A stretch of DNA of 56,566 bases from Promethearchaeota archaeon (lineage in GTDB: Archaea; Asgardarchaeota; Lokiarchaeia; Sigyniarchaeales; SOKP01), in assembly GCA_019894975.1 (NCBI GenBank), contig JAGXNO010000023.1, positions 1 through 56,566 on the forward strand. The letters are read 5' to 3'. The notes below the pieces were generated by a model. That model was not told the origin of the DNA and did not search any database. It saw only the letters and a program-made list of their open reading frames with translations. Below are positions 32,403 through 52,065 of this stretch, one piece after another. Made by a program: the position numbers and the translations under genes. How positions within the stretch are numbered: the first letter of the stretch is position 1; every line of letters starts with the position of its first letter.

Positions 32403-34154
32403 TTACTCTTGGAATTTTTCTAGAAGTTCCTCAATTTCTGCCTGAATAACTTCGGGTTTCTTTGCCGTTTTACCCTTTATCGCGAGTTGCCTCTCTATAA
32501 TTGGTCTGTGGAGCGTGTTCATGGCACAGAAAGGGATCTCCCGAACTTTAGTAGGGTCATCAGGATCTATGACTCCGTAATGGACAAGACAGCTACATAC
32601 TCTGTCAAGATCGAAGTTGTAAGCATCTTGGAAATGCATACTTGATATGAGTAAATTACGTGTATGTAGGAAATTTGCGGCAGAGTTAAAGTTTGGGTTC
32701 ATTACCAATCTAGCAAACCCTTGATAAGTTTTGCTGGTTAGGATTTTTCCAGGTTCTTTAATAAAGCGTGCTGCACCTGCGAAGTAGTACGCCTTTATAA
32801 TTTGACGATATCCTAAATCAGTCATGTCATCCACGAACTCTCCGATTTTTGAGAAAATTGGACCAAGATCGTTTAGGTTTATACCCTTTAGCAGCCCTGT
32901 AGGCTTAGGAACTTCACGCTCTTGAACCATATCCCATACTTTGTTCGACCATTTGATTAATCCAGTGACATCGAAGTAATCCTCGAGGGCTTCCCACTCT
33001 CCCTTGTCGTTGATTATTATTATTGAGCAAAAGCCGCAGTCCTGATGACTTGTCATGCTAAACGCGGGCATTTCGTCAAACCAAGCAAGTAATTGAGTCA
33101 TTTTGGCTGTAGTTGCGATAGGATAAAATTGACCGATTGCTCCATTCGTATGTTTATTTATTGCTTCTTTAAGATCAGAAGTGGTATATCTAATATCCAT
33201 TAATTCTTCGAAGCTGATACGACCTGTTAATGATACAGGCTGGAATATAACACCAGAAACAACATCAGAATTATCCCTAGCATAATCTAAAATATTTCCG
33301 ACTTGATTATCATTTATCCCTTTAGCGATAACTGGGACTAACACAATTCCAAAAAATCTAGCTTTTCGGGCGTTTTCTATAACTCTCTTTTTAAGAGGCC
33401 AAAGGTTCACACCTCGTATTTTTTTCCAGACCTCAGGAGCATCAGTTGCATCAAATTGTAAATAAATCGCATTCATTCCTGCTTCCTGGCATTTTTTAAG
33501 GAATTCGGGTTCTTTACCAAATCTAACACCATTAGTCGTTACCATTAATTCAGTAAATCCTAGTTCCTTTCCTTTTCGAATGATATCGGGGAGATCATCT
33601 CTAACAGTAGGTTCTCCGCCTGATAATTGGAGTAATACAGCAGGAACAGGCTTCATTGATCGAAAATGTTCCATTATTTGTACAATTTGATCAAATGAAG
33701 GTTCTACTATATATCCTTTAGCACTTGCGTTGGCAAAACAAATAGGACATGTAAGATTGCATCGATTAGTAATGTCTATTAAGCAAATATTTGGGGCGCT
33801 TTTGTGATTGGAACAAAGTCCACAATCATAAGGACACCCTTTATTAACTTCTTTAATTCCCGATGAGACAGATTCTGGTTTTGTAGTTGTATTTACAGTA
33901 GATCCTATGCTTGTTGTGAATCCTTGTTGCCATTTGTAATCTTCGGGATTAATTGATAACTTATCTTTAAATTCTCCATGATCTTTACAATTCTTTACCA
34001 TCATAACCCAGTTTGTTTCTGGATCAACTACGATATCAGCGGGAATGTGCTTCATACACTCAGGGCAGAGAGAAGTTGTCTTCCTAATTATCTCACCGTA
34101 TTGTTTCTTTTCCTTTTTATTAGTTTGAGTCTCAAGCTCAGTCATAAACATCAA
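32403..34154 (-). CDS. tes: Tetraether lipid synthase (Tes / GDGT-MAS, MJ0619-like) radical SAM enzyme
   Basis: SLCPEC..C..HG N-terminal metal site, CPYDCGLC..H, CNLTCPICFA, C-terminal MHFQDAYNFDLDRVCSCLVHY...IPFCAMN. Confidence 0.85.
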   Translation of the reverse strand: MMFMTELETQTNKKEKKQYGEIIRKTTSLCPECMKHIPADIVVDPETNWVMMVKNCKDHGEFKDKLSINPEDYKWQQGFTTSIGSTVNTTTKPESVSSGIKEVNKGCPYDCGLCSNHKSAPNICLIDITNRCNLTCPICFANASAKGYIVEPSFDQIVQIMEHFRSMKPVPAVLLQLSGGEPTVRDDLPDIIRKGKELGFTELMVTTNGVRFGKEPEFLKKCQEAGMNAIYLQFDATDAPEVWKKIRGVNLWPLKKRVIENARKARFFGIVLVPVIAKGINDNQVGNILDYARDNSDVVSGVIFQPVSLTGRISFEELMDIRYTTSDLKEAINKHTNGAIGQFYPIATTAKMTQLLAWFDEMPAFSMTSHQDCGFCSIIIINDKGEWEALEDYFDVTGLIKWSNKVWDMVQEREVPKPTGLLKGINLNDLGPIFSKIGEFVDDMTDLGYRQIIKAYYFAGAARFIKEPGKILTSKTYQGFARLVMNPNFNSAANFLHTRNLLISSMHFQDAYNFDLDRVCSCLVHYGVIDPDDPTKVREIPFCAMNTLHRPIIERQLAIKGKTAKKPEVIQAEIEELLEKFQE

Positions 34155-34570: not shown

Positions 34571-35107
34571 ATGGATATGGACAAAGAAAAAGACGATAAA
34601 GGAAATATTTTATTAGCAGATTCTTATGAAACACATATTACTGCCTTGCAGTATATAGAGAATAAGAAAGAAATTAGGGAAGAAGTCTATAAAGATACTA
34701 CTTTATGGGGGAATAAATTAGGAAATGATTTCTTGTTTGATATTGTTAACCTCTTAAAATGGGAATTGGATGAATTATCACATCCGGATCCAGCTTATCA
34801 AGAACATAAGTTCATCAGAGTTAGCAGTTTATTAAGAAATTTTAAATCTGAACTTCGGGAAAAAGGAGACTTGGAAGAAGCCCTTAACGACTATATAGAG
34901 GAATTAAACGAATTTAGGTTCACCACGTCAAGAGAAGGTTCTTATCCTGGAGCACCTGAAATAGACATCCCGATCACAGCCGAACAAATCAAGGAAAGAC
35001 TGTATGATATACGTCGATTTAAAATTGAGGTATATAAGAGTGCTCTAGAAGAGTACAAGAAGAACAAAGAAGAATATAATCATTTCATAGATATTCCAGA
35101 CGTTTAA
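34571..35107 (+). CDS. Hypothetical acidic, helical protein
   Basis: 178-aa ORF, no recognised motif. Confidence 0.7.
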   Translation: MDMDKEKDDKGNILLADSYETHITALQYIENKKEIREEVYKDTTLWGNKLGNDFLFDIVNLLKWELDELSHPDPAYQEHKFIRVSSLLRNFKSELREKGDLEEALNDYIEELNEFRFTTSREGSYPGAPEIDIPITAEQIKERLYDIRRFKIEVYKSALEEYKKNKEEYNHFIDIPDV

Positions 35108-36987: not shown

Positions 36988-37476
36988 ATGTCTTTCTATA
37001 ATAAAGTAAATAGGAATTATGGTTTTAATTTAGAAAAACTTAGATCTCAAGAAAATCTTTTTCATGCTATCTATTTTTTAGATTACGAATCTGGTTCACT
37101 ACTTGTAAGCAATAGGTTTTCAAAAAACTTAAGCTTCTTAAAAGATGATTTAATTTGTAGCTTTCTAAATGCAATTAATTTGTTTATTAACGAATTGAAG
37201 GAAGGGGCCAGGGAAGAAATTCAAGAAATTAATTTTAAAGACACAAGAATATTATATGAGAGGGAAGGTCGTTTAGTAGTTATAGCAATTACAAAGAAAA
37301 ATGATCTTCATATAGAAAGAGGAGTTATTAGGGAAATTCTAGAGGACTTTTATTATCGATTTAAAAATCATATTAATAATTTCAATGGTTCCATAGCTCC
37401 AGCTATTAGCGATTATAAAAAAAGACTTGAATGCATGAATTTAGACTCGCTATTCAAGTTCAATACAAAGATTTAG
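36988..37476 (+). CDS. Longin-like domain protein
   Basis: AIYFLDYESGSLLVS...DLICSFLNAINLFINEL...IQEINFKDTRILYE...ILEDFYYRF longin pattern. Confidence 0.65.
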   Translation: MSFYNKVNRNYGFNLEKLRSQENLFHAIYFLDYESGSLLVSNRFSKNLSFLKDDLICSFLNAINLFINELKEGAREEIQEINFKDTRILYEREGRLVVIAITKKNDLHIERGVIREILEDFYYRFKNHINNFNGSIAPAISDYKKRLECMNLDSLFKFNTKI

Positions 37477-37479
37477 AAC

Positions 37480-38841
37480 TTAGGATGAATCATTATCATC
37501 TTTCTTAAGCTTCTCAACTTCAGATTCAAATTTATCCACAATATCTTTAGCATCTTTTTTTATTTCAATCTGATGTTCAACTATTTCCTTTTGTTCATCA
37601 ATATCTTTTGCTCTTTTCTCAATAGTGCTTAGTATTTTTTCAGCAGTGCCATTGATATCAGGATGCAACTCCCTCAAATGAGCTGTAGTATCTTTTTTAC
37701 GATCAATCATAAAAGCTTTTTCTTCTATAGATTTTTCTATTTTTTCTGCTGTCCCCTGTATGTCCGCGTGTAGTTCTACTCGTTTAGCGAGACTTTCTTT
37801 TTGTCGATCCATCATAAATGCCTTTTCTCCAATTGTTTTACTTATAGCTTCAGCTTTTTCATCAAGATTAGGATGAACATCTAAATGTTTATCTTTTTCT
37901 CGGGTAATTAAAAAGGCTTTCTCTGAAACAACATCTTTTATAGCTTCCGCTGCTTTATCCATGTCAGGATGAAGACTTATACGCTGTTCATCTAGTTCTT
38001 TTTGTTTTTCCATCCTAAATGCCTTCTCAGATACAGCCCCCTCTATTGCTCCTGCTACCTTATCTCTGTCAGGATGAAGACTGAAGCGTTGTTTTTCTAA
38101 TTCTTTTTGCTTTTCCACCCTAAATGATTTCTCAGACACAGCACTCTCAATAGCTTCTACTGCTTTACCCATATCAGGATGAAGAGAGGTACGCTGTTCA
38201 TCTAATTCTCTTTGTTTTTCCATTCGAAAAACTTTCTCAGACACTGTTCCTTTTATAGCTTCAGCAGCCTTATCCATTTCAGGATGAAGACCAGTACGCT
38301 GTTTGTCTAATTCCCTCTGTTTTTCCATCCGGAAAGCTTTCTCAGAAACTTTGCCCTCTATTGCCTCTGCAGCCTTGTCCATTTCGGGATGGAGAGCGAT
38401 ACGTTGCTCATCTAATTCTCTTTGTTTTGCCATCCTAAAAGCTTTCTCAGACACTGTTCCTTGTATAGCTTCAGCAGCCTTATCCATTTCAGGATGGAGA
38501 GCGATACGTTGTTCGTCTAATTCTCTTTGTTTTTCCATCCTAAAAGCTTTCTCAGACACAGTACCCTCTATTGCCTCTGCCGCTTTATCCATTTCAGGAT
38601 GTAATTCTTTCAATTGGGCTGTAGTTTCTTTATGACGATCAATTCTGAAGGCTTTTTCTTCAATTATATCCGAAATTAATTTCGTACTTTCTTCAAAAGC
38701 TCTTTTTCTTTCATCCTCAGTAATTCTTAGGTAAGATTCTCTATCTTCCTTTTCTTTCTTATAGAGATCATCTACCATTTTTTTATCTGCTTCAATTTCT
38801 TCCTTAGTTGGAGGTTTTTCATTCTCAGCCAATATTCTCAC
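37480..38841 (-). CDS. Charged helical protein with about ten 35-aa tandem repeats
   Basis: Repeat unit LHPEMDKAAEAIEGTVSEKAFRMEKQRELDEQRIA. Confidence 0.85.
   Translation of the reverse strand: MRILAENEKPPTKEEIEADKKMVDDLYKKEKEDRESYLRITEDERKRAFEESTKLISDIIEEKAFRIDRHKETTAQLKELHPEMDKAAEAIEGTVSEKAFRMEKQRELDEQRIALHPEMDKAAEAIQGTVSEKAFRMAKQRELDEQRIALHPEMDKAAEAIEGKVSEKAFRMEKQRELDKQRTGLHPEMDKAAEAIKGTVSEKVFRMEKQRELDEQRTSLHPDMGKAVEAIESAVSEKSFRVEKQKELEKQRFSLHPDRDKVAGAIEGAVSEKAFRMEKQKELDEQRISLHPDMDKAAEAIKDVVSEKAFLITREKDKHLDVHPNLDEKAEAISKTIGEKAFMMDRQKESLAKRVELHADIQGTAEKIEKSIEEKAFMIDRKKDTTAHLRELHPDINGTAEKILSTIEKRAKDIDEQKEIVEHQIEIKKDAKDIVDKFESEVEKLKKDDNDSS
37600..38604 (-). repeat. Coding tandem repeat, 105-bp period, ~10 copies degrading towards the C-terminus
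   Basis: Periodic LHP..D..AEAI...SEKAF motif. Confidence 0.9.
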
Positions 38842-38979
38842 TTTCTCAAAGTTAAAAACCTGTTTTTAAATATAATAGTTGAATTGGTATTTAATTTTTT
38901 TTAGATTTAGATATAGAAATTATTTTAATTCATTCACAAAATATCTTTATTCAATCTTTGCTATTTAATCTTTTTAGGT

Positions 38980-39729
38980 TTATTTAATAGGTATAGGCTC
39001 AAACGAATCGTCTGGAATTTGTTCCATTAAGCTTAACATTGTTAGTTTCATATTAAGCATTTCTATTGCTTCCAAATTCAATTTTTTAGATTTTTCTGAA
39101 TCTTTTGATAAGTTACATTTAGCAAACAATCTATTTAACTCTTGTAATAATTTATCAATGAGTTTCTCTTGGTTATCTAAACTAATTTCCTGATTTTTCA
39201 ACCAACTATCTATTTCACTCTTAATTTGAGTTTCATCACCATTATTTGTCTCATAACTCACTAGGACTTCTTGGTTAGTATTTAAATTAGAAATATAGGA
39301 TTGATCTTGATACATTGGTTTAATTAATAATCCTAAGTTTGTTATTAAGGGTTGAGTTTCAAGTTTTTCTAATGAATCGGTTAAAAATTCTAGTACTTGA
39401 TTTTCAGGAGTAATTTTTGAATAGTTCATATATTTTTGAAGAAAAAACATAATTGTGTTTTTAACAAGAATTTCTTCATAATCATAGATATTTTCAGGTT
39501 TAATTTCAAGAGTATTAGTTATACATGTATAAAGTGAATTCATAAAGGGTTTGTTGTCTTGAAACAATGAAAATTTGTTTACAAAGTTGAGAATATCACC
39601 AATAATTTCAAGTTTGTTTTCTTCTGGTTCTGCATTGCAATAATGATTAAGACCTTGCTCCAAGTCAAAGTTTTCGTCGGAGATTGATAAGAGTTGCTTT
39701 ATCTCAGAAAAAACAGAACTAAGATCCAC
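38980..39729 (-). CDS. Hypothetical protein
   Basis: 249-aa ORF, no recognised motif. Confidence 0.7.
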   Translation of the reverse strand: MDLSSVFSEIKQLLSISDENFDLEQGLNHYCNAEPEENKLEIIGDILNFVNKFSLFQDNKPFMNSLYTCITNTLEIKPENIYDYEEILVKNTIMFFLQKYMNYSKITPENQVLEFLTDSLEKLETQPLITNLGLLIKPMYQDQSYISNLNTNQEVLVSYETNNGDETQIKSEIDSWLKNQEISLDNQEKLIDKLLQELNRLFAKCNLSKDSEKSKKLNLEAIEMLNMKLTMLSLMEQIPDDSFEPIPIK

Positions 39730-39863
39730 AATAAGTTATTTTGTTAATAATCTTTATAAAAGCTTTTCATTTTTGAAAAAGATGAAAGTCAAAAATTTTA
39801 AAATGCAGTGATGATTAAGGCTTTCTTACCATGCTTTTGTGGCATTTTAGAAAGGTTTTTTAG

Positions 39864-39892
39864 TCTTGATATATATCATCTCTTGATATATA
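39864..39892. promoter_or_regulatory. Candidate PadR operator
   Basis: Perfect palindrome TGATATATATCA (39867-39878) and direct repeat TCTTGATATATA (39864, 39881) just upstream of the padR-ABC operon. Confidence 0.5.
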
Positions 39893-39919
39893 GCAAATAT
39901 AAAATATAAGGTTAAACAC

Positions 39920-40486
39920 ATGGCAGAAAAAATAGCTGAAAAATTTGAAAATGCCATGAAAATTGGATTTATTAGTGCCCTTATTTTAATTGTCCTCGAA
40001 AAAGACACTTCTTATGGATATAAAATATGTAAGCAAATTGAAAGACGGACATTAGGGATATGGAATCCAGCCTCTTCAACTATGTATACTGCTCTAAAAG
40101 ATATGACGGAAAAAGGATTAATTACCTTCATAGAAAAACAAGTTGATGGAAGAAATAGAAAAATTTATGAAGTTACCCCGAAAGGTAAAGAAACATTGAA
40201 AATAATGCTTGAAAAACATAACGCTATTGAAGAATCAATTGAGACATTAAAAATTGCAATGCTAGGAGATGAAAAGGGTGAATTACCTAAAGGGTTTCAT
40301 AAAATTGGTCCTTTTGATCTTATTTTAAATAGATTGGATGAGAAATCTGATGATGAGAAGTTAGAATATCTAAAGCTTCAAAAATTGAGATTCTCTATAG
40401 ATAAAGAGAGATTAACTACAACCTTACAAAGAATTGAAGAAAATATTACACTTCTAAATAAGAAATTAAATAAAAAAGAGAGTTAA
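39920..40486 (+). CDS. PadR-family transcriptional regulator
   Basis: SYGYKI...STMYTALKDMTEKGLI...RKIYEVTPKG. Confidence 0.9.
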   Translation: MAEKIAEKFENAMKIGFISALILIVLEKDTSYGYKICKQIERRTLGIWNPASSTMYTALKDMTEKGLITFIEKQVDGRNRKIYEVTPKGKETLKIMLEKHNAIEESIETLKIAMLGDEKGELPKGFHKIGPFDLILNRLDEKSDDEKLEYLKLQKLRFSIDKERLTTTLQRIEENITLLNKKLNKKES

Positions 40487-51831: not shown

Positions 51832-52065
51832 ATGGTAAATATTCGAATATGTCCAAAATGTAAGGAGGCAACGTTAAAAAGTGGGTTTAATGTATCAGGC
51901 TGGTTAGCACCGAATTTTGTGGAGTGCCAAAAATGTGGATATGCAGGTTATTTTTATATTGAAATAGATCCTGAAGATTATAAATTAGATCCAGAAGATC
52001 CAATCGATCCTGAGGATTATAAACTGGATCCAGAGGATAAATTAAGTGATAGCGAAGAATTTTAA
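51832..52065 (+). CDS. Small zinc-ribbon protein with duplicated acidic tail
   Basis: CPKC...CQKCGY; IDPEDYKLDPED twice. Confidence 0.75.
   Translation: MVNIRICPKCKEATLKSGFNVSGWLAPNFVECQKCGYAGYFYIEIDPEDYKLDPEDPIDPEDYKLDPEDKLSDSEEF

What the first reader, a model, noticed from the sequence alone, without database searches (positions are those of the whole stretch)
37480..38841. 35-residue tandem repeat protein resembling nebulin actin-binding repeats
Seen: ~10 repeats with a period of exactly 35 aa in the well-conserved copies, consensus LHPEMDKAAEAIEGTVSEKAFRMEKQRELDEQRIA. Established: nebulin/nebulette/LASP modules are ~35 aa, bind one actin subunit each along the filament, and carry a PE-hydrophobic start followed by S(D/E)xxYK. 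Here PEM is followed by SExxFR at nearly the same spacing (about one residue longer). Lokiarchaeia have actin filaments. Inference: a candidate filament-lining or ruler protein, homologous or convergent, which I do not know as a described Asgard actin regulator. Alternatives: a five-heptad coiled coil, or a GvpC/LEA-like amphipathic repeat.
Basis: partly seen in the sequence, partly recalled or inferred. Interest (0 to 1): 0.8.

Follow-up and report, generated by a model that had tools for sequence, protein, structure and literature searches.

The report
Lokiarchaeal 35-residue helical repeat protein
A widespread group of Asgard archaea carries an undescribed rod-like protein of ten 35-residue helices; it is not detectably related to muscle nebulin but may have evolved on its own to line a repeating partner such as the actin filament, which is untested.

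Summary
The repeat is real: one 453-aa minus-strand ORF with ten 35-aa units (one shortened to 32). It is usually single-copy and syntenic, and is found in 109 of 134 genomes of this Lokiarchaeia family. It has no convincing Pfam, PDB or Atlas relative. It is not a nebulin-family member: no PF00880 hit, no SDxxYK in 47 homologues, and across 317 units the 'Ser' is mostly Gly, while nebulin's actin-contacting D3, K11 and K30 are missing. The resemblance over all eight nebulin positions is marginal (shuffle p 0.03-0.04). The repeats arose by duplicating the C-terminal helix of a 57-68-aa protein that stands alone in Freyarchaeia and Helarchaeales; other lineages expanded it with periods of 37 and 37-41. 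AlphaFold gives unpacked 30-34-residue helices broken at Pro. Best reading: a multivalent helical liner of a periodic partner, Lokiactin the lead candidate (about 0.33). The scan noted this family before in about 24 other genomes.

The parts
37480..38841 (-). Whole gene, 453 aa, GTG start conserved in homologues; highly charged (E 16%, K 14%), no TM segment or signal peptide evident, no Trp or Cys
38644..38820 (-). N-terminal module (aa 8-66): one continuous helix with 96-98 degree (11-residue) hydrophobic periodicity, ending in the first I-x3-I-x-EKAF motif; homologous to a stand-alone 57-68-aa protein of other Asgard lineages
37975..38604 (-). Six homogenised 35-aa core units (aa 80-289), 68-90% identical in DNA
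37669..37974 (-). Three diverged units (aa 290-391), the first shortened to 32 aa
37483..37668 (-). Partial tenth unit running into a conserved C-terminal helix (aa 392-453), pLDDT 75-87 over most of it
38863..38894 (-). Conserved upstream block with a TATA-like element ending about 21 nt before the GTG, kept in all ten loci compared; probable own promoter with a short or absent leader (inference)

Best explanation
A cytoplasmic, non-globular helical tape. SHOWN: each unit is predicted as one 30-34-residue helix, broken for 3-4 residues at x-x-P, with no packing between units; each carries a near-invariant I-x3-[IV]-[GS]-E-K-A-F motif; the array arose by tandem duplication of the C-terminal end of a small ancestral Asgard protein. 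INFERRED: an invariant Lys beside the hydrophobic stripe and an invariant Phe off that stripe are not explained by self-folding, so the motif docks on a partner, and a strictly kept period means the docking site recurs about every 52-56 A. The best candidate among this lineage's known polymers is the Lokiactin filament (55.8 A per strand). The protein would lie along about ten subunits and stabilise or measure a filament of roughly 55-60 nm, working like nebulin but of independent origin and with different contacts. My odds: periodic partner of any kind about 0.55, Lokiactin specifically about 0.33.
For: Two AF2 models give long helices broken at the Pro, pTM 0.19 and 0.32, the second at pLDDT 87.5. 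No clear long-range covariation in 288 two-unit windows. I12 99%, K19 100%, F21 98% over 317 units, with F21 about 130-160 degrees off the I5/I12/I16/I23 stripe. Period 35 in 170 of 178 spacings. A genome of a sister family uses a Pro-less 37-aa unit (37 x 1.5 A = 55.5 A). Lokiactin rise is 27.9 A, so 55.8 A along a strand (PMC9834061). Lokiactin is present in 31 of 33 well-assembled genomes of the family sample. Nebulin-like order of Pro, small residue, acid and aromatic is above column shuffles (p 0.03-0.04 for all eight positions). Module-to-repeat homology: hhalign 91.8%, E 7.5e-7.
Against: No direct evidence of actin binding of any kind. The gene is not linked to actin or its regulators. 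Its distribution is far narrower than Lokiactin's: no convincing match in most Asgard families, nor in the closed 4.4-Mb and 6.0-Mb genomes of the sister family, which by size are probably the two cultured Lokiarchaeia (my inference). A third lineage has periods of 37, 38, 41, 40, 41, looser than a ruler needs. Units are near neutral (mean -0.2). The actin Lys68 that holds nebulin's Tyr is Met in this family's Lokiactin. Any 35-aa helix is about 52 A long, so the length match is weak evidence.
Confidence: 0.33

Rival explanations
1. Self-associating helical rod or fibre: the helices pair into a right-handed or mixed coiled coil with Pro hinges, forming a spacer or scaffold with no external periodic partner; the small ancestral protein is a short homo-oligomeric coiled coil.
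For: Hydrophobic periodicity of the N-module peaks at 96-98 degrees (11-residue type); the repeat peaks at 94-96 degrees on the Eisenberg scale and 100-102 degrees for large hydrophobics. The structural search returns only generic coiled-coil helices, Z up to 6.9. In-register pairing would also conserve the period.
Against: Only 24% large hydrophobics and best heptad a/d occupancy 0.48. Invariant K19, R/K27 and D30 fall on or beside the stripe, and invariant F21 lies off it.
Confidence: 0.25
2. Multivalent binder of some other target (FtsZ, ESCRT-III, an actin-related protein, ribosomes, nucleic acid or an enzyme): the small protein binds one site and Lokiarchaeia multiplied the motif for avidity, so the period only reflects the size of the duplicated segment.
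For: Three different periods in three lineages (35; 37; 37-41) and 4 to 13 motifs per protein. Ongoing homogenisation in one clade. The genomes encode two FtsZ/tubulin-family proteins and three actin-related proteins.
Against: Indels inside the 35-aa array are rare, nearly all one 3-residue deletion, and one clade keeps position-specific units (75% identity at the same position between genomes against 45-48% within a protein), which argues for register constraint. No conserved gene neighbour suggests a partner.
Confidence: 0.22
3. Membrane- or droplet-coating, or LEA-like stress protein: amphipathic helices that fold on a lipid surface.
For: H1 (positions 5-16) is amphipathic, moment 0.54. The gene lies 3.3 kb upstream of a tes-like tetraether synthase gene here, and the small homologue lies directly upstream of tes in Freyarchaeia.
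Against: Whole-unit moment is only 0.2-0.3. Invariance of single residues is unlike LEA or apolipoprotein repeats (own knowledge). Tes is in 290 of 400 Asgard genomes, far more than this family, and the module is not next to tes in the other four families.
Confidence: 0.1
4. True homologue of nebulin/LASP repeats, inherited from the Asgard ancestor of eukaryotes.
Against: No PF00880 match; no nebulin among 44 phmmer hits in 1.84 billion proteins (long hits checked); SDxxYK absent, D3, K11 and K30 unmatched; arrays are lineage-specific expansions; not found in most other Asgard families.
Confidence: 0.04

Closest known systems
Nebulin / nebulette / LASP simple repeat (Pfam PF00880; bioRxiv 10.1101/2021.10.06.463400)
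   Same: About 35-aa tandem units, Pro at the start of a long helix, small residue then acid then aromatic about 14-18 residues later, no autonomous fold.
   Different: G-E-K-A-F instead of SDxxYK; the invariant residues are Ile, Lys and Phe; D3, K11, K30 missing; H1 one residue longer; no loop after H2 in the model; no seven-unit super-repeat, LIM or SH3; no profile match; separate origin.
Beta-thymosin / WH2 tandem actin-monomer binders (PF01290)
   Same: Short amphipathic helix after K-P-D-hydrophobic; the N-module starts with a P-T-x-E-E-I-E helix cap that recalls thymosin's C-terminal helix (own recollection, a lead only).
   Different: No LKKT/V-type motif after the helix; no PF01290 match at these genes in five genomes or in Pfam scans; the cap is a generic helix N-cap.
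Pentatricopeptide repeat (PPR)
   Same: 35-aa period with hydrophobic-K-P-D at the unit boundary.
   Different: PPR is a helical hairpin solenoid (own knowledge); here one straight helix per unit, a charged second half, no hairpin covariation and no Pfam PPR hit.
Gas vesicle protein GvpC
   Same: Helical repeats of about 33-40 aa that lie along a periodic protein lattice (own knowledge); a good functional analogy.
   Different: No GvpA in five genomes of the family (no control genome rang) and no GvpC profile hit.
Known Asgard actin regulators (profilins, gelsolins; PMC7444086, PMC13716822)
   Same: Same lineage and, if the hypothesis holds, same target.
   Different: Globular folds; no repeat-type filament liner is described in the papers found.

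Membership tests
Nebulin/LASP repeat | Tandem simple repeats of 31-38 aa | tested here: met
   35 aa in 170 of 178 spacings, 32 in 6; range
Nebulin/LASP repeat | SDxxYK motif at positions 18-23 | tested here: not met
   Exact motif in 0 of 47 proteins; S 16% (G 58%), D 4% (E 93%), Y 2% (F 98%), K 0% (R 44%); relaxed S[DE]xx[YF][KR] in 27 of 317 units
Nebulin/LASP repeat | Pro at position 5 starting helix H1 | tested here: met
   Pro in 81% of units, but only with H1 one residue longer
Nebulin/LASP repeat | Actin-contacting charged residues D3, K11, K30 | tested here: not met
   D/E 0-1%, K/R 2-4%, K/R 11% in either register (positions)
Nebulin/LASP repeat | Match to Pfam PF00880 | tested here: not met
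   No hit at E<=10 for 6 full proteins and 44 units or at the gene in 6 genomes; HMMER filters and the loose first look can drop weak matches
Nebulin/LASP repeat | HMM-HMM similarity to nebulin | not testable with these tools
   No nebulin sequence was available by reference; surrogate positional test gave shuffle p 0.03-0.04
Nebulin/LASP repeat | H1-kink-H2-loop anatomy | tested here: inconclusive
   AF2 shows one helix per unit with a 3-4-residue break and no loop; position 17 is G/S/D/N/T in 82%, compatible with a kink on binding
Nebulin/LASP repeat | Seven-unit super-repeat or LIM/SH3 domains | tested here: not met
   No peak at distance 7; no such domains
Nebulin/LASP repeat | Actin Lys68 available for the cation-pi contact with Tyr22 | tested here: not met
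   Met in this family's Lokiactin; never Lys in the 30 Asgard actins printed; numbering from actin His73 (own knowledge)
Nebulin/LASP repeat | Binds F-actin, one unit per subunit | not testable with these tools
   Needs experiment
Beta-thymosin/WH2 | Amphipathic helix followed by LKKT/V; PF01290 match | tested here: not met
   Helix followed by G-E-K-A-F; no hit at the genes
PPR | Helix-turn-helix unit with hydrophobic helix B; Pfam PPR match | tested here: not met
GvpC | Gas vesicle gene cluster with gvpA | tested here: inconclusive
   0 of 5 genomes, but no control genome rang; no gvp genes near the locus
Canonical heptad coiled coil | Hydrophobic a/d positions, 103 degree periodicity | tested here: inconclusive
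   a/d occupancy 0.48; peak 94-96 degrees (Eisenberg) or 100-102 degrees (large hydrophobics)
J-domain HPD mimic | Invariant His-Pro-Asp | tested here: not met
   HPD in 128 of 317 units; Lys replaces His in 33%

The most novel reading that the evidence does not exclude
Lokiarchaeia independently evolved a nebulin-like filament liner by multiplying the actin-binding helix of a small Asgard protein; that 60-residue protein would then be an unrecognised Asgard actin regulator, and different lineages expanded it with periods tuned to the 55-A strand repeat.
Probability: 0.25. Interest if true: 0.85.

Novelty: new variant of a known kind. Interest (0 to 1): 0.55.

Why it matters
Described Asgard actin regulators are mainly profilins and gelsolins; I found no side-binding, length-spanning repeat protein in the literature searched. 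If this family lines Lokiactin it would be the first archaeal counterpart of nebulin-type stabilisers and a clean case of convergence, with a visible path from a 60-residue ancestor to a ten-unit tape. Even if the partner is something else, it is an unannotated, nearly core gene of a large Lokiarchaeia family, and the 60-residue stand-alone form is an easy reagent for finding the partner.

Tried and rejected
Pfam hits above cut-off (Dimer_Tnp_hAT E 3.5e-10, Entericidin, UBA_SIK3) are sums of weak short matches that differ between homologues: rejected. Long phmmer hits were a zinc-finger, a TPR, a phage tail and a viral capsid protein: rejected. PDB sequence searches, Foldseek (79), Atlas (8, 52, 80) and VIA (92; only generic long helices, Z below 7) found no relative; nebulin's absence from these lists proves nothing. 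Link to Tes: rejected on distribution. Weak module hits in other Asgard families (E above 1e-4) fall mostly in long unrelated ORFs. P0002 is a repeat N-terminus joined to unrelated sequence on a 1.5-kb contig, probably a chimeric assembly. A direct profile comparison with nebulin was left out because no nebulin sequence was available by reference.

Full report
Observation. The finding is one ORF on the minus strand, 37480-38841, 453 aa. TRF finds a 105-bp period (score 738). Ten units begin at aa 80, 115, 150, 185, 220, 255, 290, 322, 357 and 392; one is 32 aa and the last is partial. The six central units are 68-90% identical in DNA. A profile of the units finds no other copy in the genome. 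A TATA-like block and the GTG start are conserved in ten loci.

Family and distribution. tblastn of GTDB genomes gave 18 loci, mostly labelled Promethearchaeota (Lokiarchaeia), with conserved gene order: DUF362-like gene, 249-aa unknown, repeat gene, convergent longin-like gene, two unknowns, tes-like radical SAM gene. A profile search of 400 Asgard genomes found it in 109 of 134 genomes of the own family, 1 of 14 and 2 of 4 in two sister families, and weakly in one distant family. Most proteins examined in the two largest genera are 445-495 aa; other genera have 230-390 aa. One clade homogenises its units (73% identity between neighbours); another keeps position-specific units. There is no seven-unit super-repeat.

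Origin. The weak distant hits were real. The first 65 residues exist as a stand-alone 57-68-aa protein in four other Asgard families (5/5, 6/6, 2/3, 1/3), named by sources as Freyarchaeia and Helarchaeales hypothetical proteins. Its last 23 residues align with the repeat's H1 and EKAF motif (hhalign 91.8%, E 7.5e-7). So the array arose by tandem duplication of this helix end. The period differs by lineage: 35 with a Pro here, 37 without Pro in genome G132, and 37, 38, 41, 40, 41 in G280. No convincing match was found in the other Asgard families searched or in the closed 4.4- and 6.0-Mb genomes of the sister family, which by size are probably the two cultured Lokiarchaeia (inference). The published Lokiactin co-IP (PMC13716822) therefore probably cannot test this protein.

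Anatomy. AF2 on the full protein gives helices of 24-35 residues (30-35 in full units) broken at L-H-P, pTM 0.19. On the module plus two units with 47 sequences it gives pLDDT 87.5, pTM 0.32 and helices 10-77, 81-111, 116-145. Covariation is weak and mostly local. Structure searches return only generic helices. Over 317 units I12 (99%), I/V/L16, E18 (93%), K19 (100%), A20 (93%), F21 (98%) and R/K27 are fixed. I5, I12, I16 and I23 form one stripe; K19 and R/K27 flank or interrupt it, and F21 points away. Net charge per unit is near zero. This pattern is hard to explain by self-folding and suggests a motif that docks on a partner (inference).

The nebulin test. Wang et al. (bioRxiv 10.1101/2021.10.06.463400) define the repeat by 31-38 aa, Pro5, SDxxYK at 18-23, and actin contacts at D3, K11, S18, D19, Y22 (with actin K68), K23 and K30. 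Family-wide, S18 is Ser in 16% (Gly 58%), D19 is Glu, Y22 is Phe, K23 is never Lys (Arg 44%), and D3, K11 and K30 are unmatched; exact SDxxYK never occurs. Scoring all eight positions against column shuffles gives p 0.03-0.04; the five hand-picked ones give 0.001-0.002 but were chosen after the fact. PF00880 does not hit the proteins, units or genes. A phmmer search of 1.84 billion proteins returned family members and a few unrelated repeat proteins, no nebulin. Actin K68 is Met in this family's Lokiactin. It is not a member of the nebulin family; this does not settle whether it works like one.

Mechanism. The best reading is a multivalent helical tape that lies along a periodic partner. A 35-residue helix spans about 52 A plus the Pro break, and the Pro-less 37-residue unit 55.5 A; Lokiactin repeats every 55.8 A along a strand (PMC9834061). 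Lokiactin is missing from this assembly but present in 31 of 33 well-assembled genomes of the family sample, so this is probably an assembly gap. Ten units would cover about 55-60 nm. Shown: helix-per-unit anatomy, fixed motif, fixed period, duplication origin. Inferred: a partner exists, it is periodic, it is Lokiactin. Against actin: no genomic link, a much narrower distribution than Lokiactin, looser periods in one lineage, and the fact that any helix of this length fits. The co-fold could not be run. I put a periodic partner at about 0.55 and Lokiactin at about 0.33. Rivals: self-associating coiled-coil rod (0.25; the module has 11-residue periodicity), avidity binder of another target (0.22), membrane or LEA-like helix (0.10), true nebulin homologue (0.04).

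Comparison and novelty. PPR, beta-thymosin/WH2 and J-domain mimicry each fail a defining feature, and GvpC has no support. Literature searches found no description of this family or of nebulin-like proteins in Asgard archaea; the library lacks most subscription journals. The scan's first readers noted the same family in about 24 genomes with the same untested idea, which is not independent support. It is an undescribed protein family; functionally it is best filed as a new variant of filament- or lattice-lining helical repeats until binding is tested. Interest 0.55; 0.85 if it proves to line Lokiactin.

Noticed in passing
L110:5253-5447, L120:4814-5008: In Freyarchaeia-type genomes the stand-alone 65-aa homologue sits between a gene that looks like myo-inositol-1-phosphate synthase (my reading) and tes, all on one strand; the repeat gene in Lokiarchaeia is also upstream of a tes-like gene.
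   Followed up: partly
window 32403-34154 (-): Tes-like radical SAM protein just under the NCBIfam cut-off (440 against 450 bits); most genomes of this family hold two Tes-like genes.
   Followed up: partly
window 36988-37476 (+): Longin-like protein (weak Fuz_longin_1 hit, E 0.08) convergent with the repeat gene, stop codons 3 bp apart, kept in all 19 loci.
   Followed up: no
window 39729-39920: The DUF362-like 445-aa gene found between the PadR/ABC genes and the 249-aa gene in 14 of 18 related loci is absent here.
   Followed up: no
window 34571-35107 (+): 178-aa ORF with no counterpart in any of the 18 related loci.
   Followed up: no
G000 whole assembly; C12, C55, C137: Canonical Lokiactin is missing; only three actin-related proteins are present, one (C55, 509 aa) with Cys-rich insertions near its C-terminus. 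The LRR gene next to Lokiactin in relatives lies here without it.
   Followed up: partly
L065, L066: Some genomes of the family carry a second close Lokiactin paralogue (83-85% identity) next to a winged-helix-like gene.
   Followed up: no
L003, L006, L012, L014, L018: Record titles say Hodarchaeota, Hermodarchaeota or Nanopelagicaceae, but gene order matches this Lokiarchaeia family; probably mislabelled bins.
   Followed up: partly
window 51962-52038: Short 39-bp (13-aa) tandem duplication, TRF score 117.
   Followed up: no
L118:4019-4225, L123:7709-7918, L016:1581-1814: Small Pro-rich zinc-ribbon-like ORF (about 70 aa) inside the same gene cluster in several relatives.
   Followed up: no
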